Positions 555 through 63,228 of a stretch of DNA of 64,000 nucleotides are shown one piece after another. The notes below the pieces were generated by a model, which saw nothing but the letters and a program-made list of their open reading frames with translations, did no database searches and had not been told where the DNA came from. The stretch is from Euglena gracilis (taxonomy: Eukaryota): the NCBI GenBank assembly GCA_039621445.1, contig CP154954.1:34631737-34695736 (forward strand), written 5' to 3'. The position numbers were made by a program, and so were the translations under genes. Position 1 is the first letter of the stretch; every line of letters begins with the position of its first letter.

Positions 555-2060
555 CCCATGACCCCCCCCCCCCCAGGGGTCAACCACCCACTCACCCACC
601 CAAAATCAAGCCATAATTGGCCGAAAATGCTGATAAAATGTTTCCAGCCTGGCTTTTGGGCGGATAAAAACTGACCCCTGGCGCACCCCGGGGGGTGGGA
701 GTCCTGGCCACCCACTCTTGAAACCCCCGGCAGGCTTGTATGGGAATCTCAGAGGGGGGGGGGAGGGACCCCCCTTCCTACCTCCAGTTTTTCGGTCGCC
801 GAACTTCTCGCTGTTGAGTGCAAAACTTCGGCCCTTTTTTGAGTCAAAAATGAATTTTTCTGAAATTTCTCAAAAATGGCGGGGAGTTAAAAGAAATATC
901 CAGAGACTTAAATTGAAGCCCTTAAAATGCCCCATCTAACAGTATTTGATTTCTCCGCAACTCCCCGTCTAGCCCGAGTTATGAGCATTTTTCGACCAAT
1001 TTTGGCTGTTTTGCCAAAATTTCATACTGAGCGTCAAGCAGGCTGGTGCTCACCGACCGGGGGGGGGAGGGGGGGGGTGCTATGGGGTGCCTGCCCCTAG
1101 CAGGCGCACCGCCCTGAGGTGGGGGACCCAGAAAACTTTCATTGAAAATGGCCTTTTCTGGGCCCCGGTGCCTTTGGCGCTGGGCTCAGAGGGGGGGGGG
1201 TGCTTGCTATGGACAGGCTGGTGGGCACCCGACATGAAGCGTCAGAAGTTTTTTTTTTGCCCCTGCAGCTTCGAGCCAGTCTGAAAGAATTCAACGCCTC
1301 AATATCGACCGAAAATGCTATTCAGGGCACCTTTTGAGGCAAAAACCAAAATTCAGCCGGGCTATTTTTCTGCCAAAAAAAATGAAGCGAAAAAACCAAA
1401 AATAGATAAAAAAAGTATTTTTGTCGATTTTTGACCACTTTTGTCCCATCACCCAGCTTGGGTGTGCTGGCCCAACTTCATTTCAGCGGACCACAGGGGG
1501 TCTGGACCCCTACATGGGGGGGGTCAGACCCTCCTCCTTTCGAAACGGCAAGGTGCCAGGAAAATTTTCGGTTCTTTGGACGGCCAAAGAACCGGATATC
1601 AGGCCAACATTGTTGGAAAATCCCCAATTTTTCTTTGAAAATAAAATCCAAACATCCTCTTCTTCTTGAAAAATTTGAACTTTTTTCCCCATGCGGACGA
1701 ACACCAAAGCATCCAAAAAAGTGCAATGTGCTGAACAGCGAGCAATATTATGCATTTTCCGGCATGCAGCGCTGGAAAAAGTTTTTTGGCGTTTTTGAAA
1801 CCTGTCAACGAGGGGGGTCCAGACCCCGGCCAGGGCGTGGGGGCACCCTGGCACCCGCCTGGTCGGGGGGAGCCGAGTGGGGCAAGGGGCCGAAGGAGGT
1901 CTTGGAGGCCCAGGCTGGAGGCAGGCGGGCGGTCACTCATCCACCTCCAGGACCCCCCATGGCCTCAGGCAGCTGGCCATGCCGGACCCCTGGAGGGCAG
2001 CAGGGGGGATGGAGGGAATGGAATGGAACGGAACGGAACGGAACGGAACGGGAACCCAAC

Positions 2061-2141
2061 CAGCGTTGGGCCCACGAGGCTGAGAAGCACAGCAGGCAAA
2101 GCCAGTGAAGCTGCGGCGCTGAACGGATGCATGGCGGGCAT
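2061..2141 (-). CDS. Possible first exon of a downstream gene with a signal-peptide-like N-terminus (MPAMHPFSAAASLALPAVLLSLVGPTL)
   Basis: ATG at 2141 is followed by a hydrophobic stretch, a GT donor, a (GTTCC)n intron and a CAG acceptor near 1991. No recognisable homology. Confidence 0.3.
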
Positions 2142-2638
2142 CGCTGCTTGCTTCGACAGACTTGGCAGCCAGCTTTGGGGGCTGGGGAGCATTCTGGGTC
2201 ACGCCGTCTCAAAGCGCTGAGCAACGGGCGAAACCTGGAGGGCAGACAAGCGCCGAAGAATGGCACACCCAGAAGTCAAACAAGTCGTATGCTGAAAGCG
2301 TAAGGCAATTCGAAAAATGGGTGGTGCTGAGTTGAACCCTCGCGAGGGCCAAATACAGCGAAAACGACGCTAACTCTCAAAGCGCAAGCTAAACCTGCAA
2401 CACGTAACCTGTAATTTTGCGTGGAAGGGGTGCTGAGGGGGCCCTTCAGCATTGGGGGGGAGGGAATGGAATCGCAGCGGGAGGAGGACGGGCCAGCCAT
2501 GCGGCGCTGGCAATTCACAGGGAAGGGGAAGCGACGATTCGCCGGGGGCGGCTGAGCGATGCGCGGCGCAGGGGAAGAGAGGTCGACTCGTGGCGCGGCG
2601 GGCCGGGGCCCCGGGGGCTCGCGCCGCGGCCCGGGCGG

Positions 2639-3822
2639 TCAGGTGGGTGTGAGGTCCTCCAGCTGCCAGCTGACCCGCACACGGCCGGACACGAACCGCC
2701 GGTAGTCCGCGAAGCAGGCGGGGCGGAGGCGGATGTCCACCCAAACGTTGGACTTGCTCGTGGTGCACCCCGTGATGCCTGCCGGGGGGGGGGGGGGGCA
2801 GGCAGGCAGGGGGGGCAGGGGCAGGACCTTCACCGGCGCAATGGGCGGCTAATCGACGGGATGGAACGCCGGCATCCCGAAATGCGGCGTGTTGCATGTG
2901 AGTCCCGCTGAGCCCCAAAACTGGCCGCCTGCCGGAACTGGGTGAATGGCAACGCACACGGCAGCAGCGCGAGAGGGGGGGGGATGGAGGTGCACCGGTG
3001 GTTTGGAACTGCCCCTCCCCCAGGAAGTCGTCGGAGGACGACCGGTCCCAGTCCCACAGGAGGACCTGGACGTGCGTGTTGGGGCTGAACACCACGAACT
3101 GCATCGTCTGCGGAGGACCCCCGGACCGCCTCTCCCCCCACCCCGCCCCTCCCGGGGTTTCAGACAAACGTTGGGCCTCCCACAGAGAGCTCTGCCTTCG
3201 GACCCCAAGCCTGCCACCCTTCCACCCCCCAAAAAAGCTGCATAATTTGCTGAATAAACAAATCCATCGGATGGCTCCGTGGGCCAAACCACCCCAAAGA
3301 CAGACCCCTCTGCTGGGAGGGGCCTGTCTTTGGCGGGGCACACCTCCTCGAAGAGGGGGTGCATGTCCTTCAGCTTGGACTTGGTGGGGGCAGGGCGCCC
3401 ATGGGGCAACGCGGACGGACGCCACCGCCAGTGAGCAATCGGCGGCCAGGCAGCCCGGAGAAGCAGTCGCACAGAAGGGGCTATTTCATTCTGCAAAACA
3501 AGCCGGTGCTGAAAGCGGAAACACCAGCCAGATGCTCCCGCTGAGAGAGACCTCCGGGTTCTGAGGCGAAAATGCCACAAATATGTAGGGAGGAGGAAAA
3601 CATCACAATGCAAAAACTGGCCCCGCCCCAGGTGGGGTCGGCCGGCGCGCGGTATCGATTGAAATGGAGAGCCCACAAGTGAGAGGAGTGCCGGCCGGCC
3701 AGCGATGCGGCGCCGCCATGGCCCCCCCCCCCCCCACTCCCCCCCCAACGCCCCTCCACCCACTCAAACAACCTCCCACCCCCCCCCCCCCACCCATCCC
3801 CCCCCCCCCCCCCCCCCCCCCC

Positions 3823-3858
<36 letters not shown>

Positions 3859-3963
3859 GGCGGTCCATCTGCTGCCCGACCATCACCGCCACGTAGGGGT
3901 CCGTGGAGAAGTGGTCGGAGGCGCGGAAGCCGTGGGCGCAGTGGATGGTGACGAAGAGCCGGC
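2639..3963 (-). CDS. Exons of the C-terminal C2 domain of the MCTP-like gene
   Basis: C2 hallmark motifs DPYV and WDWD....DDFLG. The GT-AG intron 2779-2995 is in phase 1, and the TGA stop is at 2639-2641. Confidence 0.85.
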
Positions 3964-6900
3964 CTGGATGGCGAGGCTGTGGACGTTGCTGAAGGACGCC
4001 CCCCGGGGGGGGGTCCAGCTCAGAGGCTGGAAAAGGCTGCTGGCTGACCCCCCACAGTTTCAAAAAAAAGGTATTTTCCCACCTTGCTGATTGAATCATT
4101 CCAAGAAACGCCCAACTCTGCTCACTTCCGAGAACGATCTGAAATAGAGGATGAAATAATGTCCTCAAAAGCGGAGGATGGGTGCGTCGCTGCTGGAATG
4201 CTGCTGGGGGTGAGAGGGAAAAAAAGGGGCGGCAAGGTATTGGGGTCCTGGGCTGGAGCTGGGCCAGACCTGGGGTCCAACCGGGTGCCCAAAAATCGAA
4301 ATTGCAAAAATGCCCAAAAAATGCCAATTATGAAAAAAATGCTTTTTTTGACCCAAAACTGTCCTGGCCAACCGTTTTCCGGACCACATGCCCATTTTCG
4401 GCCCATTTTTGCCCTTCCAAAGGCGAAGAACACTGTTACCGCCGAGCCTGAAGGGCGGCTGGAAATAAATGATAAAAAAATAAACTCGCTGATGGGGGGT
4501 TGAAATAACATGCAATTACATGTGCACAGATGAGACGACCAGAATGTCGGGGAAAGAAATGCTGCTGCTATTGTTCCAGTGTGGCAGTGGGGTTGATGGT
4601 AGCACACCGACGTAAGGGTGCACTGACGGCGCAGACCGTAGCCGAACACCATCCATGTGAGACGCAAACGTGAAGCAGCGGAGGATGGGGTAGCGAATGA
4701 ATACTGCGAGGCGGAAGGGAGGATGGCCAGCGACTGAGGAAAAATGTTTGGGAAAAGAGGTTTTGTTGGAGTGAAACAAAATGCACACCAACACGGCTGT
4801 CAAACCAGTATTTTTTTTGAAAAAATACATGACTTCACCGAAAAGAAAACTTTAGCTGTGCCGTCAAATGCCCAGAAGGTTGGTCAGACCGCTGATGGAC
4901 AAATAGACCACCAGCAGGAAGTTCAGCATCACCCAGCCTGGCAGGACGAACGTGAGGAGGAAGCAGCCGGAAAAGAAGCCGAGGGCGAGGACGCTGGACC
5001 GCGGGTGCTGCCACGTGGCGAGGGACAGGAAGCGGTCGAAGACCCGCCAGTTCAGCCACGCGGTGCTGACCATGACCCTGAGTGGCAGGGATGTGGGGGA
5101 TGGGGGAGGCTTTGGAGGAGTGGGGGGGTCTGGTGCTGTGTGGATTGCGTGTGTCTCTGGTCAAATGTGCCCAGCGCCAGACCCTCGTGGGGTCCCACCC
5201 CGTGCCCTCCCATAGCACCCCCCCCCCTGTTCGGCATGTGCTGTACCCATGAAAATGACAATTGACACAAAGTGCCAAAAAAATATCTTGCAAATTTGGG
5301 TTGACTGTGAAAAGACAGCTTTCCAAGAGTCCTTCAATGGTCCCACAAGTTGGAACAAAGCCCGAAAAAAATGCAGAAAAATTGGCAAAAATCTCAAACA
5401 GAGCAAATCCTCACCCATTATTTTTCAGGTGTCAAATTGGCTCGTTTCAGATTTGTTTGTTGACAATGAAACATTTTCATTGACCATTTTTGGACACATC
5501 CACAGGGAAAAAAATGGGTCCATTTCAAAAAGTCAAAAAAAATCCCTAGAATCGGAATTATTTTTTGGGATACAGAAATCAGAATAATTTTGGGTGATAA
5601 TTGCATTGTCACACTCAAATTGGCTGAATTTAAGGCTTCCATGGGAGCGTATACTGGAACAGGCACTTCAAGGCACCAATATCTGACCCTCCTTCCTTGG
5701 GGAAGGGGTGTTCCTGGACACTCAGCCAAAGGCACTCAGCGCCTGAGGCCCAAAAAGAGGCATTTTTGGGCAATTTGGATGACCCCCAGGGGTGTCTGCC
5801 CGCCCAGACACCCCAGGGTACTCTGAAGCCCCCTCTCAAAATGATCGAATTTGGCCTCGAATTTTGCCAAACGTCGAGCCTTTCCTCAACTTTATTGGTT
5901 GGTGCAGTTCCTTGGAAAGTTCCTCTGAAAAAATAACGTGACTTGGAAAATCTACGGGCTAAGGCCAAAACTTGATCCATCAGCAACCAGGGTGCCATCC
6001 AAGCAACAGGTGGTCCCACTCCCTGTAGCTTAAAGGGAGGGTCAAGCCCTTTTTCCCAGTCCAGGCCCCTTAGCTTGTATTCGGTTTCCCATCCAACCAA
6101 TCGAAGGGCGGTTGGATGGCAACATATTTTCTGCTTGGGGGTGCAAAAAAAATTGGAGAATGGGTCCAAATTTTCGGTCAAACATTTATTTTTTGCATAA
6201 TTAAAAAATATGAATTTTCAGACAATATTGAAATCAAACACAATTCAGTGTTTTTTTTGGAAGTTTGTGGGGGATTCAATTTTTGAGGGGCTATTTTTTG
6301 GATCCTTGCTGGAAATCAGCAGGGCTGGAGAAGCCTTAACCTGAACAGGTAGTTGTTTAGGGCCATTAGTGCAATTGTGCAATTGCGCAAATGACAACCC
6401 TTTTTGAAAATCACCACTTGGCATTCAAAACAGGACAATTTAATTATGGTGCGGGCTGGGCGCCAGGACCCAGAGATGAAAACTAAGCTTTTGACAGTTA
6501 GGGTGCCCGGACCAAGTGTCCCCCGGAGCACACAGGGTCCACAGGCCAAACATACGTTTGGAGACTGCCAAACAGGCTGCCTCATCAACATAGCATGTTG
6601 CAGGAACAACTTTGAGCAGGTAAGACAGAGTCACATATGCCACATTTTGTTTTTCGAAAATTTGGTGGTCCATTTGCGCAATTGTCAAAGTGGTCCATTT
6701 GCTTTTGTGCAAATGGAACACTTTCACCAGCAAAAAAAAGGATTATTCGTGCAACTGCACAAGCACTTGATCCAAATGCATTTAAATAATTCAGCATATT
6801 ATATGTGCTTTATATCTAGGTATTATAGATGTTATATGTGTAATAAGGACATATTAAGGAAATACTTCAACATGCTTTAAATCTTAACTTGAAATTGGAC

Positions 6901-20240: not shown

Positions 20241-22118
20241 ATGGGGTGGGAGGGGTTGGCAAAGATGGAATCGCCCCCCCCCCCACAAAAAGGGTTCCGG
20301 GTGGTACGGAGCAAACCGGCTCCCGGGCAGCACAAACTATTCAATTCAGTATTCGGCGGCAAAACCTCCGATACCGGATGGCGGAAATGCAGGTTCAAAA
20401 AGTCCATTGGCTGACCGAGCAGCCCTCTCCCCCAAAGAGTGGGTCCCACCAGGTGTTTTTTTTTTTTTTAAGCCAGAGATGACCCCCACCCCTCCGTTCC
20501 AGCCAGCAGCTCCCAGCAGGGCTACGGACCCCCCCCCCCCCACCTTGGGGGTCCTGAAATAAAGTTTGGACCTAAAGTTTGGACCGAAAAAAATTGCACC
20601 GAAATTTTTTGAAAAAAAAAGAGTCAGAAATGGCCAAAAATAGAATGGTTTTTAGGTTTTTTTGCTGAAAAAGCAAATCTGGCCGGATTTGGGCTTTTTG
20701 GCCTTTTCTTCCAGGAACCCGCCAGGTCCAGCTGCTTGCCAGCTGGATCCGCGCCCCTGGACCACCAACCTGTGGGGGCGGGCGCCTTAAAAAAACCCCC
20801 AAATTTTTTTTTTTAAAAAAAAACGCCTTAAATTTTTGCCAAAATGCCTTAAAACCCTCAAAAAACCATTCCGTGAAATTTTTCTCCAATTGAGCAAAAA
20901 ATATAAGAAAGCGCAAAATCTCTCTAAAATCAAGCCAAAAATGATTCCTGGCATTGCTGGAACCCAAAATTCGAAAAAAAAAGGATTTTCGATCTTTTTT
21001 ATTTTATTTTTTGGACCCCCGCGATGCTGGGATGGCCTTTCGACAGCCCTTGGAAAATAATACCTAAAAAAAACTTAAACGGCCTTAAAACCCTGAAACA
21101 AAAAGCCTTAAAGAGGCCTTAAAAAAGCCTTAAACATTTTGAAAATTTCGCCTTGAAAATATTGCGTGCCATCAACTTTTTCCACTCAGCACCATTTCCA
21201 GCTCGCCCAGGGACCCTCCAGCCAGGGGTCCTTCAGAAAACCCCTGGGTCCAACAGGTGTAACCCCCCCCCAAAAAAAACCTGGTGGGGCTCTTGCTCCT
21301 GGCAGTGGCCGAATACCTTGGCAGGAGGAGGGGCAAGGTTCCAGTAGCTTGGCACCCCCCCCCCCCCTTTTAAGGCAAAGCGCTGAAAGAAAGGCCCAAA
21401 TAACCTGTCAGGGGGGCAGTTGGTTCCAATGACCTGGCACCCCGCCAGGTCATTTGGGGGGGGTTACAGCATGCACAGGGACAGACAAAAAAACCCTGCA
21501 CTGCAAACGTGTTTAAAAAAAGCAGCCAGCAAGAAAAGGCAGACCGCTGCAAAGAAAAATGAAAATATTTCCTGATGGGCCCACTCTGGCTAGAGGAGAT
21601 GTGGGGCAGGTATATGGGGTGGCGCTGGGAACTGCAAGGCTTGCAATGTGTTTCGTGGAGCGCCAGATTCATTGCAACATGTTCTACATGTGGTGGAAAA
21701 CCAAATGGACAATTCATTTGCCTGAAAACCAGCAGCAGAGGTAACGAGGGGCAAAAAGGAACCACTCCCTCAACCTCAACCCTGGAATAAATGGACACTT
21801 TGATGAGGGCACATACCAAGCAGTGTGAGATTTTTGGGTTAAACGACGTTTCCAAATACAAAAAAGATACCATAAATATTAGCATTGCTGGAACACACTG
21901 TTGAAAGGAGCCTCAGAGGACTTAATGCGGTCGTGGGGAGGGGGGTTATGCCCAAAAGCTCATGCCCAAAAAGCTTATGCCCAAAAGCACATAATTTAGT
22001 CACGTGAGACGGAAGTAAAGAAATGTTGAGAACTTCTCAAAAGCCAGGACTTTGCGGCAGATCATTTAACAAGTGGTTGGCTTATTCCTTTGCACAAAAA
22101 TCACAATTTTTTTGTGTT

Positions 22119-22157
<39 letters not shown>

Positions 22158-22210: not shown

Positions 22211-23030
22211 CCTGGCGTTGCTGAAGGACCCCTCCACCTCAGAGGCTGCAAAACTTGGGCTGGCTGGAAAAAGGTTGCTGGCTAACTGGACCCCCCCCCC
22301 CCAATAGGGGTCAGGGCTGGAACTGGGCCAAATCCAGGATCGAACCGGGTACCCAAAAAATCGAAATTGCAAAAATGTCCAAAAAATCTGCCAATTATGC
22401 AAAAAATCGATTTTTTTTGCCCCAAATTTGCCACCGCCGCCCTTTTCCGACCCATTTTTGCCATTTTTGCACCTGGCTGGAAAAAAAAAACTTGGCACGT
22501 CAATGTACGGGTACGGTTTCGCGGACTCTCTTTTTCCCAGGTGTCCGTACCTTGGGTTTTCCAACCACCATTTCTGTGGCTGCAGTAATTCCACAATTTT
22601 CAGAGCTTTTTTGCAAGTCTTTTTCCTTTTTCAAGGTTTCTGGGTCTTGTCGTCAGTGCAATGCTGAACTCTGTGCAAGGATCTCCACACACCACCGTGT
22701 GGAATTCACCGGTTTGAATTGTTTTTTGTAGTCCCAGTCCAGTACATCCACCTGGTAGTCTGCTTTCCACCTGGGGTCTGGGTCCACCGTCACCACCTCG
22801 AAACCCATTTTTTTCGGACACTGTGCCGACCCATTTCGTTCCACAGAAAAGGTTTTCCGCTGTGGCCCGTTCTGGTGTCGTCGTTTGCTGCCTCCTGCAG
22901 TTTTCTGATGTGTTTCTGTGATTTTTCTGTTCCCAAGTCGGTTTGTTGTTCACCACCCTCCCCCACGATGGGGGGGTCAGGACTAGAAAAAGGCTGCTGG
23001 CTGGCTGGACATCCCTGGGGGGAAGTCAAA
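22211..23030. mobile_element. Degenerate member of the CAGGGCGTTG MITE family interrupted by a ~470-bp insert
   Basis: 22213-22493 and 22967-23030 are colinear with the intact element at 47949-48379. Confidence 0.65.
22497..22870 (-). pseudogene. Frameshifted C5 cytosine DNA methyltransferase fragment
   Basis: Across about 3 frameshifts it reads LFCGTKWVG (motif I-like), EVVTVD..DVLDWDY, GDPCTEFS (catalytic PC, motif IV) and WWLENP (motif VI) in the correct order. Confidence 0.8.
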
Positions 23031-24030
23031 CTTCCGCCCTGCCAAAGACTGTAGAAAGTTAGGGTACCCTAGAGCAGGGGCCACCACAGCATAAAATACA
23101 CACAAAACTTTCAGAGTGCTCCAACAGTCCATTTCAACCTGGTAAACACACTCCTTTCACAGGGGGGAAAAACGCGGGGGATAGAAGCAGCAGGTTTCGT
23201 GCATTCTTGTAATTTCCCATTCCCAGGGTTTGTCCCGGAGGATTCCGCACGATATTTCTTTTTAAGAGGTCAAAAACATCAAAATTTGCATTTCCCCTGG
23301 GTTTCAACCCAGAAAATGTTTAAGATCCACACAAAGGGGGCCGACGTTCAATCAGCAGATCATCAACCCCTCAAAAGAAAACTTGTGTTGGTTGCTTTGA
23401 GCAAAGCAACACAACGCAAGAAGCATAAGCAGAACCCATCATCTCCATATCACCATGCAGTCTATTATTTCCCGACTTGTTTCTGAATATTCGTGCAATG
23501 ATCCCTTTGCCAATCTGCCAAATATCGGTTCCTCGCTCGAGTGTCAGTCAGGGTGAATACAATGATTATTGTAAAAGCGAGAGAATATACACAACAAGCT
23601 GCCAACTGAGGTAAGGTACAAAAAGGAAAATAAAAAATGTGAGCAAAGAAGACAAACAGTGCAAAAAAGAAACCGAAGGGAAAGTGCTGATCACAGCGGT
23701 GTTCATTGTACAAGCAGGGGTCCGTCAGAATATAAAATAACCTCCAAATGAATTTGGCTGAGAAATAAGAACAAGGACCCTCCCGCCTGCTCCACTCTGG
23801 AGGTCAAGAAAATGACGATGGCACTTAAAATCACAGAACCTGATGGAATTGAACCCACACCCAAACCACAAATTATATCCTGATGAAGAGTAGAGGGAAT
23901 TTCCGAGTTTGAAAATGCCCCCAAATAACACAAAACAACTTCAGTGAACAATGGATTTGGGGTTTGGGCACCAGTGTTTTTTTGGGCGATGCCATCCGGC
24001 GACGTTGGGAGACTGACCACTTGCCGACAC

Positions 24031-44225
<20,195 letters not shown>

Positions 44226-47200: not shown

Positions 47201-47948
47201 TCCTCGTCACTTCCGACGAATCCGCTCTGGAGGACGCTCTGTGAGGAGACTCACGCTTGATTTGCCTGCATGTGCTTGGAAAGTGGTTGCTTTTCTTCTC
47301 AAACCCAGGAAAGGAGGCCCCTTGTGGTGTGTGTCAGCACCCCGGATCGGTTGAAAACAGAGAGAAATGGTTGTCAAGGCACTGGCACTTCTTTGTGACG
47401 TTCCTTCCGCAAGGGGGGGGGGGCGTAATTGCTCAAGGCCCCCCATGCGTGTGATAACGCAAATTGCGTTGATTGGCACGTTACAACTGGGGTGTGCTAT
47501 GTGTGAACACAGCTGTTGCGGCCCTCCAAGGAGATCCTGCGCCTTAAAACTCATATGGGATCCACAAAGGCGAATGCGAGGGATGAAAGACGAGGATCAT
47601 CTCTCGTGTCATACCTCCCATTTCCTGGTTGTAGAAGGTGGGGCTGGACCCGCAACACTCCGCTGTCCGCAGACCTGAACCCATCCAATCACTTGTCCAA
47701 TCACATGACTGCCCTGAACTGAAATTTGGGGTATGATGACAACGTGGCAACGCCCAGCAGAGAAATTCAGATTTCCAGCAGACGAGACAATCTCCTAAAT
47801 GCTCTTGTGGGGACTCAGCAGTGGCGCACTCGAGGCCTATGTATTCTACAGTACACCACGTATATAACGGGGAGGGACACCACCCGGTCCTGGCAGGAAA
47901 CAGCCAGAACCACAACCCACGCAGGGGTCAGCCACGCACAGCCCCAAC

Positions 47949-48379
47949 CAGGGCGTTGTTTAAAGACCCCTGGGGGGTCCAGCTCAGAGGCTGGAAAATT
48001 GGGGCTGGTTGGATAAAGGTTGCTGGCTGACCCCCCCCCCCATGGGGGTCCCAGGCTGGAGTTGGGTCGAACCGGGCACCAAAAAATCGAATCACAAATG
48101 TGAAACTACCAATTTGTATGCCAAAAATAAATTTTTGACCCCCTAAAACGTCCTGGACAGCTGTTTCTGACCCATTTTTGCCCATTTTTGACCATCCCCT
48201 GAAAGCGAAAAATCCGCCACTGTCCAGCCAGTTTTTCCAGCCACCCTTCAGGTGGCTGGAAAAAAAAACTTCTTGATGGGGGGATCTGGGGTTGGAAAAC
48301 GACTGCTGGCTGGGAAAAGGCTGCTGGCTGGCTGGACCCACCCCTGGGGGGTGGTCAATTTTTCTTAAGCAACGCCCTG
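47949..48379. mobile_element. hAT-like MITE with CAGGGCGTTG TIRs and perfect 8-bp TSD
   Basis: GCCCCAAC|CAGGGCGTTG...CAACGCCCTG|GCCCCAAC. Partial copies lie at ~3985-4470, 22211-23030 and ~60200-60300. Confidence 0.9.
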
Positions 48380-48468
48380 GCCCCAACAGCCGCAGACAGC
48401 CACCCACAAGCCACAGCAGCCGGGTCACGGGTCACGGGGGCCACGACAGCCAACCAGGGGCGTCGGGG

Positions 48469-63228
<14,760 letters not shown>

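What the first reader, a model, noticed from the sequence alone, without database searches (positions are those of the whole stretch)
22497..22965. C5 DNA methyltransferase fragment lodged inside a MITE
Seen: an intron-less, frameshifted segment reads LFCGTKWVG...GFEVVTVD.DPRWKADYQVDVLDWDYKKQFKP.EFHTVVCGDPCTEFSIALTTRPRNL...IVELLQPQKWWLENPRYGHLGKR...PYIDV. It sits between AAAAAACTT and GATGGGGG, which are nearly adjacent in the intact MITE at ~48265-48280. Established: compact DNMTs of this style occur in large DNA viruses and in DNMT-carrying retrotransposons of dinoflagellates and some algae. Inference: this genome hosts or hosted a mobile element or virus encoding its own methyltransferase, or the MITE captured it Pack-style.
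Basis: partly seen in the sequence, partly recalled or inferred. Interest (0 to 1): 0.75.

Follow-up and report, generated by a model that had tools for sequence, protein, structure and literature searches.

The report
Dead retrotransposon methyltransferase fragment in MITE
A broken 470-base piece of a cytosine DNA methyltransferase gene, copied from a high-copy LTR retrotransposon that carries its own methylation enzymes, sits inside a small DNA transposon; the piece is dead junk, but it points to an unusual transposon family in this genome.

Summary
On the minus strand, 22496-22961 reads in five in-frame pieces separated by four frame breaks. These match consecutive positions 10-137 of 230 of a profile of compact C5 DNA methyltransferases, with motifs I, IV (PC) and VI (ENP); the C-terminal 40% is absent.

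The nearest relative, P0066 (84.9% identity, 129 of 152 residues), is one ORF reading Dam-like adenine methyltransferase, C5 DNMT, then aspartic protease. More distant clade members continue into RT, RNase H, integrase and chromodomain. The source is therefore a Ty3/gypsy-like LTR retrotransposon with two DNA methyltransferases. This is the kind named EpiLTR in a 2026 preprint. It is neither a virus nor a host gene.

The fragment lies exactly between bases that are 3 nt apart in an intact 431-bp element at 47949-48379, which has a CAGGG... TIR and a perfect 8-bp TSD (hAT-like MITE).

Public reads show the DNMT sequence at roughly 10^2-10^3 times the depth of unique flanks, in frame in other copies. 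Both junctions sit at single-copy depth. The fragment is thus a one-off capture, probably break-repair filler, and not an amplified Pack-MITE.

Verdict: real but non-functional; moderate-to-low interest.

The parts
22211..22493 (+). Left arm of MITE copy A. It starts CCTGGCGTTG (the degenerate counterpart of CAGGGCGTTG in copy B) and ends ...GGCTGGAAAAAAAAAACTT.
   Evidence: collinear with 47952-48212 and 48251-48271 of copy B, 86.9% over 237 ungapped columns.
22494..22495 (.). Two junction bases (GG) that match neither copy B of the MITE nor the retrotransposon family's continuation.
   Evidence: Also the loose end at 22496, where other family copies read on into ...DYCQ.
22496..22961 (-). 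Internal fragment of a retrotransposon polyprotein ORF, equal to P0066 residues 177-338: the linker plus the N-terminal ~60% of a compact C5 DNMT. It has four frame breaks (near 22885, 22815, 22711, 22607) and lacks 7 codons relative to P0066 (residues 212-218).
   Evidence: 129 of 152 aligned residues identical to P0066.
22886..22960 (-). In-frame piece 1: polyprotein linker (EGGEQ...KLQEAA), upstream of the DNMT domain.
   Evidence: 22 of 25 identical to P0066 residues 177-201.
22816..22884 (-). In-frame piece 2: end of the linker and motif I (LFCGTK, SAM-binding loop).
   Evidence: 17 of 22 identical to P0066 residues 202-230..
22713..22814 (-). In-frame piece 3: the stretch between motifs I and IV (GFEVVTVD...DVLDWDYKKQFK).
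   Evidence: 28 of 34 identical. E 4.4e-08.
22609..22710 (-). In-frame piece 4: motif IV with the catalytic Pro-Cys (GDPCTEFS).
   Evidence: 31 of 34 identical. E 3.9e-10 for this frame.
22496..22606 (-). In-frame piece 5: motif VI (LENP). It ends at ...PYIDV, where the fragment is cut off.
   Evidence: 31 of 37 identical. E 7.3e-08.
22962..22966 (.). About five junction bases (CCCAC) of uncertain origin, between the end of family homology and the MITE's GATGGGGG.
   Evidence: Also the loose end at 22961, where other copies continue upstream as ...HEYPPVEDEV.
22967..23041 (+). Right arm of MITE copy A (GATGGGGGGG...CCGCCCTG).
   Evidence: 88% over 75 columns with 48310-48399.
47949..48379 (+). 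Intact MITE copy B, 431 bp. Its TIRs are CAGGGCGTTGTTTAA / TTAAGCAACGCCCTG. It has no insert between ...AAAAACTT and GATGGGG (48269-48282).
   Evidence: I1: 16-nt arms, 94% complementary.
47941..47948 (.). Left copy of the 8-bp target-site duplication GCCCCAAC of copy B. The right copy is at 48380-48387.
   Evidence: Read directly.
4008..4357 (+). Partial copy of the same MITE family.
60200..60272 (+). Partial copy (left-arm piece) of the same MITE family.

Best explanation
The stretch is a dead, internal ~466-bp fragment of the coding region of a high-copy Ty3/gypsy-like LTR retrotransposon. That retrotransposon's polyprotein carries a Dam-like adenine methyltransferase and a compact C5 cytosine methyltransferase upstream of protease, RT, RNase H, integrase and chromodomain (EpiLTR-like). 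The fragment covers the linker and DNMT motifs I, IV and VI. It has four frame breaks and lacks the C-terminal 40% of the DNMT, so it cannot encode an enzyme.

It was inserted once, as a fragment, into the middle of an older hAT-like MITE. The most likely route is filler DNA: retrotransposon cDNA or an ectopic copy used as template while a double-strand break or an excision gap in the MITE was repaired. It has not been mobilised since.

Shown: identity, source family, truncation, frame breaks, exact position in the MITE, the family's high copy number, the single-copy junctions.

Inferred: the repair or template-switch route of capture, and that the parental family's DNMT is active.
For: Source family:
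- P0066 is 84.9% identical over all five in-frame pieces, including the non-DNMT linker. It is one ORF with Dam (31.9 bits, cut-off 28.1), DNA_methylase (22.6, cut-off 22) and a weak retroviral protease match.
- Of the 15 long relatives scanned, 14 of 15 matched at least one of these families. DNA_methylase reached its 22-bit cut-off in 6 and was below it in 7 others. P0117 reads DNMT, RVT_1, RT_RNaseH, rve (27.6 bits, below its 32.6 cut-off), Chromo. P0112 reads DNMT (21.8, just below cut-off), RVP (weak), RVT_1. P0133 reads DNMT, RVT_1, RNaseH. P0159 reads DNMT (below cut-off), rve, Chromo. P0125 has DNMT (below cut-off) and RVT_1. P0076, P0068 and P0144 have Dam above its cut-off (P0076 with DNMT 29.1). 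P0074 had no match in that scan.
- P0067, from the fragment's own 11-row clade, reads Dam (27, just below cut-off), DNMT (13.5, weak), protease (weak).
- In a 230-row tree the fragment pairs with P0066 (support 98). It lies in a 97-row clade (support 100) that holds all 15 of these long proteins and no viral or stand-alone row.

Isolated fragment:
- 12 long relatives searched against the window by tblastn hit only 22481-22932.

Position in the MITE.

Reads:
- Summed word depth in the DNMT part is 6.9e3 to 1.25e5 in X1, against about 70-170 in the unique flanks.
- In X12 it is about 900-6000 against 5-27. In X14 it is about 200-1575 against 4-7.
- Loose ends at 22609, 22707/22710 and 22813, and a 1-base length difference at 22881-22886, show that other copies depart at every frame break and read on as P0066 does.
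- Loose ends at 22496 and 22961 show that other copies continue beyond both ends of the fragment.
- Contigs that bridge the junctions have single-copy depth: X1 85.3 and 77.4; X12 5.5 and 9.0; X14 3.7 (right junction only).
Against: - No full-length DNA copy of the parental element could be fetched, because no genome is held. LTRs were therefore not seen, and RT, integrase and chromodomain are shown only for relatives at 35-46% identity to P0066. P0066's own contig ends in the protease.
- Summed contig depth is not a copy number.
- The capture route is inferred from anatomy alone: no TSD, no LTR ends, no poly-A, and 2 and ~5 unassigned bases at the junctions. No microhomology was evident.
- The single frames do not reach any Pfam family on their own.
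- The host organism was not identified.
Confidence: 0.8

Rival explanations
1. Pack-MITE / transduplication. On this view the hAT-like MITE acquired the DNMT piece and the chimera then spread as a mobile unit, possibly producing antisense or hairpin RNA against the retrotransposon.
For: A foreign coding fragment lies between the two ends of a TIR element. The MITE family is extremely abundant: arm depth is up to 8.5e5 in X1 against about 70-170 in the flanks. Other family members carry varied short fillers between their arms (table 5c).
Against: Contigs across both junctions have single-copy depth in X1 and X12, and across the right junction in X14. The bin 22490-22523 that holds the left junction has depth 155 in X1 against about 1e5 in the next bin. 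Copy A's ends are degenerate and its TSD is not recognisable. No RNA read lay cleanly on the locus.
Confidence: 0.08
2. A full-length retrotransposon inserted into the MITE, and later deletions removed everything except this piece.
For: Nested insertion of LTR elements into other repeats is common (general knowledge, recalled). The family is high-copy.
Against: The MITE sequence resumes immediately on both sides at positions only 3 nt apart in copy B. There is no duplicated target, no LTR remnant and no other part of the polyprotein within 64 kb. Two independent deletions would have had to end almost exactly at the original insertion point.
Confidence: 0.06
3. Remnant of an endogenised large DNA virus (or virus-like element) that carried a stand-alone compact DNMT.
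For: The DNMT module is homologous over about 200 columns to a ~225-aa family (hhalign probability 100, E 6.2e-62). In that family, 551 of 600 matched stretches in IMG/VR viral contigs encode a relative, and 3 of the 80 loci kept come from contigs named GVMAG. With a midpoint root, viral-contig rows are the nearest outside rows in the tree.
Against: The fragment also matches 40 residues of retrotransposon linker upstream of the DNMT (P0066 residues 177-216). It lies deep inside the 97-row clade whose long members carry RT, integrase, protease or Dam. No viral gene was found in the window: 122 of 161 long ORFs were scanned, and the only match was a weak DDE_3.
Confidence: 0.03
4. Assembly artefact, or homopolymer sequencing errors that create false frame breaks in an otherwise intact gene.
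For: Two of the four breaks lie at or next to A/T runs.
Against: Contigs from runs of different studies bridge the junctions. X12 covers both and X14 the right one, the latter with 0 differences over 260 bases. Whatever the frame breaks, the ORF is cut off at both ends by MITE sequence.
Confidence: 0.02

Closest known systems
EpiLTRs: LTR retrotransposons with DAM, DNMT and chromodomain, reported in Euglena gracilis and Cymbomonas tetramitiformis (Fernandez-Moreno et al., bioRxiv 10.64898/2026.05.21.726589; I read the outline, passages and section 8)
   Same: The nearest relative has Dam-like and C5 DNMT domains in one ORF followed by a retroviral-type protease. Clade members add RT, RNase H, integrase and chromodomain. 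In these relatives the DNMT lies upstream of the protease. It is not at the 3' end of pol, where the preprint places it in Cymbomonas. By elimination this resembles the 'structurally distinct' Euglena configuration.
   Different: The window holds only a broken 466-bp piece. All three domains were not seen together in one protein here: P0117 has DNMT and Chromo but no detected Dam, and P0066 has Dam and DNMT but ends before RT. The host organism is unidentified. The preprint's DNMT tree (sister to DNMT4) is in a supplement that I could not see, and I did not test it.
SymbioLINE-Dnmt, SymbioDIRS-Dnmt3 and KnitGypsy-Dnmt3 (de Mendoza et al. 2018, PMC5890265; I read section 6 and passages)
   Same: They share the general principle of a retrotransposon that encodes its own cytosine methyltransferase, present in hundreds of intron-less copies.
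   Different: Those use a Symbiodinium-specific DNMT in LINE ORF1, or Dnmt3 in DIRS or Gypsy pol. Here the module is a compact ~200-aa DNMT next to a Dam-like domain, upstream of the protease in a Ty3/gypsy-like element.
   Same: Motifs I, IV (PPCTEFS), VI (ENP), the YCxxG..Y[RK]KPTxIW block and the C-terminal part align throughout.
   Different: The window's fragment belongs to the retrotransposon-borne clade, not to the viral rows. Motif IV in it and in P0066 reads G[DV]PC instead of SPPC.
hAT-type MITEs, and Pack-MULE-like or filler-DNA capture (recalled: Ac/Ds TIR CAGGG..., 8-bp TSD; Jiang et al. 2004 for Pack-MULEs; Ty1 cDNA capture at breaks, Moore and Haber 1996, Teng et al. 1996)
   Same: Copy B has an 8-bp perfect TSD and a CAGGG-initial TIR, is 431 bp long and has no coding capacity. 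The family has a huge depth in reads. A foreign fragment sits between the ends of copy A.
   Different: No autonomous hAT partner was sought or seen. The captured piece comes from another transposon, not a host gene. There is no evidence that the chimera moved.

Membership tests
C5 cytosine DNA methyltransferase (Pfam PF00145) | Motif I, the SAM-binding loop (FxGxG-like) | tested here: met
   LFCGTK at 22816-22854, aligned to ELFaGTxS of the family profile.
C5 cytosine DNA methyltransferase (Pfam PF00145) | Motif IV with the catalytic Pro-Cys | tested here: met
   GDPCTEFS at 22609-22710. It aligns to SPPCTEFS of the profile. A profile of its closest relatives (A3, which does not contain the window's sequence) aligns to PPCQGFS of DNMT1 chains in the PDB over motifs IV-VI (best E 9.9e-05).
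C5 cytosine DNA methyltransferase (Pfam PF00145) | Motif VI (ENV-like) | tested here: met
   WWLENP at 22496-22606.
C5 cytosine DNA methyltransferase (Pfam PF00145) | Motifs VIII-X and the target-recognition part, i.e. a complete catalytic domain | tested here: not met
   The profile match stops at position 137 of 230. The ORF is cut at ...PYIDV by MITE sequence.
C5 cytosine DNA methyltransferase (Pfam PF00145) | Score above Pfam's gathering cut-off | tested here: inconclusive
   For the window's single frames, 0 of 3 hit. P0066, 85% identical, scores 22.6 against 22 over the same residues. P0133 scores 27.2 and P0076 29.1. The frame-joined reading was not sent to Pfam.
EpiLTR-type LTR retrotransposon (DAM + DNMT + chromodomain) | Dam-like adenine MTase and C5 DNMT in one ORF | tested here: met
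   Met for relatives, not for the window itself: P0066 and P0076 with both domains above their cut-offs. In P0068 Dam is above its cut-off and DNMT below it (16.7). In P0067 both are below cut-off (27 and 13.5).
EpiLTR-type LTR retrotransposon (DAM + DNMT + chromodomain) | Ty3/gypsy pol domains (protease, RT, RNase H, integrase) in the same ORF as the DNMT | tested here: met
   P0117, P0112, P0133, P0159 and P0125. All lie in the same 97-row clade as the fragment, at 35-43% identity to P0066.
EpiLTR-type LTR retrotransposon (DAM + DNMT + chromodomain) | Chromodomain after the integrase | tested here: inconclusive
   Present in P0117 and P0159. Not seen for the fragment's own subclade, whose members are truncated contigs.
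EpiLTR-type LTR retrotransposon (DAM + DNMT + chromodomain) | Long terminal repeats flanking the element | not testable with these tools
   No genome is held. The metagenome scan gave only 2 distant DNMT loci.
EpiLTR-type LTR retrotransposon (DAM + DNMT + chromodomain) | DNMT module in the clade that the preprint places as sister to DNMT4 | not tested
   No DNMT4 or published EpiLTR sequences were on hand, and the supplementary tree is closed.
hAT-like MITE | Terminal inverted repeats | tested here: met
   Copy B: 47949-47963 against 48365-48379, within the 16-nt, 94% complementary arms. Copy A's ends are degenerate.
hAT-like MITE | 8-bp target-site duplication | tested here: met
   Copy B: GCCCCAAC at 47941-47948 and at 48380-48387. 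Copy A is not recognisable: GTGCAAAG against CCAAAGAC, with CAAAG shared but out of register.
hAT-like MITE | Short, non-coding and high-copy | tested here: met
   431 bp. Arm depth in reads is up to 8.5e5 against about 70-170 in the flanks in X1. There are four loci in the window.
hAT-like MITE | A related autonomous hAT transposase element with the same ends | not tested
   No genome to search.
Pack-MITE / transduplicate | The chimeric element is mobilised (several copies with the same internal junctions) | tested here: not met
   Junction-bridging contigs have single-copy depth in X1, X12 and X14 (tables 2 and 8).
Stand-alone viral compact DNMT gene | The DNMT is a separate ~225-aa gene in a viral genome | tested here: not met
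   The fragment continues upstream into polyprotein linker shared with P0066. In the tree it lies inside the retrotransposon-borne clade.

The most novel reading that the evidence does not exclude
The C5 DNMT module of these dual-methyltransferase LTR retrotransposons was captured from the compact ~225-aa DNMT lineage of large DNA viruses. Support: the retrotransposon-borne clade attaches among IMG/VR viral-contig sequences, and the lineage is nearly absent from prokaryote genomes.

In addition, the window's unidentified host carries the family in hundreds to thousands of mostly in-frame copies. It could therefore be a major source of cytosine-methyltransferase activity in a genome that shows CpG depletion.

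If the host is neither Euglena nor Cymbomonas, this would also be a third lineage with such elements.
Probability: 0.3. Interest if true: 0.55.

Novelty: new member of a known kind. Interest (0 to 1): 0.3.

Why it matters
The fragment does nothing by itself. Its value is as a pointer. It shows that this genome carries a high-copy LTR retrotransposon family encoding both a Dam-like adenine methyltransferase and a compact cytosine methyltransferase. That class was first described only in a 2026 preprint.

It also links that DNMT module, by full-length homology and by tree position, to compact DNMTs of viral contigs.

In addition, it is a clean example of fragment capture inside a hAT-like MITE. 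The donor family and an insert-free sister MITE copy are both known (a reference for the family, not the pre-insertion allele of this locus), which makes it useful for studying how transposons pick up foreign DNA.

Tried and rejected
Searches that gave nothing:
- Pfam on the three raw frames: 0 hits.
- PDB phmmer with two short pieces and with P0003: 0 hits.
- Rfam: 0. tRNA scan: 0.
- Earlier findings of this scan, by place and by sequence: nothing.

Tools that were not available:
- Whole-genome search: no genome is held. Intact copies, LTRs and true copy number could therefore not be obtained.
- The listing of cluster members: database switched off. Names and accessions of relatives are unknown.

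Searches of limited use:
- Protein atlas with P0001 gave DNA_methylase-type clusters at 0.89, a lead only. With P0066 it was first unreachable, then gave no usable hit.
- The metagenome-contig scan with P0066 found only 2 distant DNMT loci, not its own contig.
With the smaller A4, 17 of 600 stretches encode relatives. Nine of these have matches of 95 residues or more, all in MAG contigs. The other eight match only residues 2-28, in Brachyspira.
- Neighbours of the DNMT in 6 viral loci: 51 of 52 ORFs were scanned. They showed other DNA methylases, endonuclease VII, GIY-YIG and glycosyltransferases, but no capsid or packaging hallmark. The virus type is therefore undetermined.

Expression:
- No RNA holder was listed for the stretch.
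- In RNA run X21 (about 5% of the run read), 62 reads were laid and 61 lay only partly. Those on the DNMT part had 7-12 differences. This says nothing either way about expression.

Ideas rejected:
- A C2-domain gene that I suspected at about 2900-4300 on the minus strand got no Pfam support at E<=0.001.
- I considered that the MITE might be part of the retrotransposon (an LTR or a non-autonomous derivative). I rejected this because copy B is a complete TIR+TSD unit without any DNMT sequence, and because the arms have about 10-fold higher read depth than the DNMT part.

Not attempted: structure prediction and complex prediction, because Pfam and profile evidence sufficed.
Full report
**Observation.**
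- None of the three frames alone reaches any Pfam family (0 of 3 at E<=10).
- A word-based search with the longest frame found three weak relatives. One of them, P0003, led to 64 proteins of a compact ~225-aa family; 15 of the 64 carry a precomputed PF00145 hit.
- I built a profile from 50 of these (A1) and ran it over all 2283 stop-to-stop pieces of the window's six frames.
- It hit exactly the three frames, at E 3.9e-10, 4.4e-08 and 7.3e-08. The next best piece had E 1.6.
- The matches cover consecutive profile positions 10-137 of 230.
- The fragment therefore holds motif I (LFCGTK), motif IV (GDPCTEFS) and motif VI (LENP), and stops at ...PYIDV. The C-terminal 40% of the enzyme is missing.

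**Where the fragment comes from.** A search among longer proteins returned P0066 (544 aa).
- Ungapped tblastn and piecewise alignment show five in-frame pieces of the window covering P0066 residues 177-338, with 129 of 152 residues identical (84.9%).
- There are four frame changes, near 22885, 22815, 22711 and 22607, and 7 codons are missing.
- The first ~40 matched residues are not DNMT. They are linker upstream of it.
- P0066 is a single ORF with Dam (PF05869, 31.9 bits, cut-off 28.1), DNA_methylase (PF00145, 22.6, cut-off 22, residues 216-318) and a weak retroviral protease match at its truncated end.
- An exhaustive phmmer search of 1.84 billion representatives with P0066 gave 4753 hits at E<=0.001.

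**Domain content of the long hits** (15 scanned; DNA_methylase at or above its 22-bit cut-off in 6, below it in 7):
- P0117 (2513 aa): DNMT, RVT_1, RT_RNaseH, rve (27.6 bits, below its 32.6 cut-off), Chromo.
- P0112: DNMT (21.8, just below cut-off), RVP (weak), RVT_1.
- P0133: DNMT, RVT_1, RNaseH.
- P0159: DNMT (below cut-off), rve, Chromo.
- P0125: DNMT (below cut-off), RVT_1.
- P0076, P0068 and P0144: Dam above its cut-off, with DNMT above cut-off only in P0076.
- P0074: no family matched in that scan.
- P0067, from the fragment's own subclade: Dam (27, just below cut-off), DNMT (13.5, weak), protease (weak).

The parental element is thus a Ty3/gypsy-like, chromovirus-like LTR retrotransposon that encodes two DNA methyltransferases upstream of its protease.

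**Tree.** I cut DNMT domains from every protein and locus fetched up to that point that matched at least 150 profile positions.
- This gave 230 different rows: 155 proteins, 74 locus ORFs and the window read-through with X at each break.
- The tree was made with FastTree and carries SH-like support only.
- The fragment pairs with P0066 (support 98). It sits in an 11-row clade (97) and in a 97-row clade (100).
- The 97-row clade consists only of P0066-type hits. It contains all 15 long proteins scanned.
- With a midpoint root, which is for drawing only, the next rows outward are DNMTs of IMG/VR viral contigs (supports 82-86). The ~225-aa stand-alone group A1 is further away.
- The retrotransposon-borne and stand-alone families are homologous over about 200 columns (hhalign probability 100, E 6.2e-62, 31% identity).

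**Spread of the compact family.**
- In IMG/VR, 551 of 600 pattern-matched stretches encode a relative. Three of the 80 loci kept lie on contigs named GVMAG.
- In one genome per prokaryote species, only 17 of 600 stretches do. Nine have matches of 95 residues or more, all on MAG contigs.
- The virus type of the nearest viral contigs could not be settled.
- A profile of the retrotransposon-borne DNMTs finds DNMT1 catalytic domains as the best solved structures, at E 9.9e-05 over motifs IV-VI.

**The host element.** Both flanks of the fragment are collinear with the element at 47949-48379.
- That copy is 431 bp long.
- Its ends are CAGGGCGTTGTTTAA / TTAAGCAACGCCCTG.
- It is flanked by a perfect 8-bp duplication, GCCCCAAC. 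This is the pattern of hAT-type MITEs (family features recalled).
- In that copy ...AAAAAAAAACTT and GATGGGGGG are separated by CTT only.
- In the copy at 22211-23041 the same strings are separated by 473 bases: GG, 466 bases of retrotransposon ORF in antisense orientation, and about 5 unassigned bases.
- There is no target duplication, no LTR end and no poly-A.
- tblastn with 12 long relatives finds no other part of the polyprotein anywhere in the 64 kb.
- The window is gene-poor. Of 161 ORFs of at least 110 aa, I scanned 122. I left out the ones over the finding itself and several overlapping or repetitive ones. Only a weak DDE_3 match appeared, at 30685-31098.

**Public reads**. Twenty runs hold part of the stretch. 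I laid three sets of DNA contigs and one RNA run.

| Run | Unique flanks | DNMT part | MITE arms |
|---|---|---|---|
| X1 | about 70-170 | 6.9e3 to 1.25e5 | up to 8.5e5 |
| X12 | 5-27 | about 900-6000 | – |
| X14 (labelled as another organism) | 4-7 | about 200-1575 | – |

- Values are summed word depth. The tool warns that this is not a copy number. The contrast still shows that the DNMT sequence is a high-copy repeat.
- Two bins are low in X1: 22490-22523, which holds the left junction (155), and 22830-22863, which holds this copy's private deletion (131).
- Contigs bridging the left junction have depth 85.3 in X1 and 5.5 in X12.
- Contigs bridging the right junction have depth 77.4 in X1, 9.0 in X12 and 3.7 in X14. 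The X14 contig has 0 differences over 260 bases.
- The chimera is therefore real and single-copy.
- At each frame break the family's contigs depart from the window: a 1-base length difference at 22881-22886, and loose ends at 22813, 22707/22710 and 22609.
- Translating those loose ends by eye gives the P0066 reading.
- Loose ends at 22496 and 22961 continue as ...DYCQ and ...HEYPPVEDEV, again as in P0066.
- Other copies are therefore longer, and in frame at these places.

**Mechanism.**
- Shown: a fragment-sized piece of an abundant retrotransposon lies between adjacent bases of a MITE, with a few untemplated bases at each junction.
- Inferred: it entered as filler during repair of a break or of a hAT excision gap. 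The template would have been retrotransposon cDNA or an ectopic copy.
- This route is known from Ty1 cDNA capture in yeast, from filler DNA at Ac/Ds footprints, and is thought to underlie Pack-MULE formation (all recalled, not checked in papers here).
- The fragment cannot make an enzyme.

**Comparison with what is known.**
- The preprint 10.64898/2026.05.21.726589 (outline, passages and section 8 read) describes EpiLTRs. These are LTR retrotransposons with DAM, DNMT and chromodomain, found in Euglena gracilis and Cymbomonas tetramitiformis. In Cymbomonas the DNMT is at the 3' end of pol; in Euglena the arrangement is different.
- The relatives found here match that description and, by elimination, the Euglena-like arrangement.
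- I did not identify the host. GC near 50% and CpG observed/expected 0.57 with TG and CA excess fit a CG-methylated genome but prove nothing about the taxon.
- The elements differ from SymbioLINE-Dnmt, SymbioDIRS-Dnmt3 and KnitGypsy-Dnmt3 of PMC5890265 (section 6 and passages read).
- Two paper searches were made. I did not search further for other descriptions of this family.

**Verdict.** The finding is real and correctly located. Its 'mobile element with its own methyltransferase' reading is right, and its viral and dinoflagellate leanings are not. The object itself is a dead one-off fragment. The family it betrays is of a recently described kind.

Noticed in passing
window 25900-27130: A block of more than 1 kb of (CA)n-like and related imperfect microsatellite. 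It has extreme strand asymmetry (GC skew -0.416 and AT skew 0.557 in the 26001-28000 bin) and gives long 'HTHTHT' pseudo-ORFs.
   Followed up: no
window 30685-31098 (+): Remnant of a Tc1/mariner-type DDE transposase (...[12 protein letters not shown]). The Pfam DDE_3 match scores 22.2 bits, below its cut-off of 28.6.
   Followed up: partly
window 22124-22155 and 21950-21990: A (CTG)n run and three tandem copies of an ATGCCCAAAAGC-like unit lie directly upstream of the MITE copy that holds the fragment.
   Followed up: no
window 31600-32300 and 53200-53480: Long tetranucleotide (TACA/TATG-type) microsatellites that give 'MYVCMYVC' and 'IHTYIHTY' pseudo-ORFs.
   Followed up: no
window 34840-35020: A homopolymer-like A/T-rich run of about 180 bases. 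It reads as poly-K on one strand and poly-F on the other.
   Followed up: no
window 22218-22421, 22966-23033 (MITE arms): The MITE family's arms reach summed read depths up to about 10^4 times the unique flanks. Many joints skip different internal parts and carry varied short fillers, so this is a very large, internally heterogeneous family.
   Followed up: partly
whole window: CpG observed/expected is 0.57, with TG and CA at 1.22-1.23 and TA at 0.57. The CpG deficit would fit long-term cytosine methylation.
   Followed up: partly
P0066, P0001 and window 22609-22710: Motif IV reads G[VD]PC in the fragment and its closest relatives, instead of the SPPC that is nearly invariant in the stand-alone family. 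Whether such enzymes are active is unknown.
   Followed up: no
L083-L091 (prokaryote MAG contigs): The few prokaryote-genome records with relatives of the compact DNMT matching 95 residues or more are all MAG contigs, several of them short. This may be binned viral DNA.
   Followed up: no
window 22480-22490: The A-run at the left junction differs in length between the window and contigs of X1 and X12, which have six more A (table 4).
   Followed up: no
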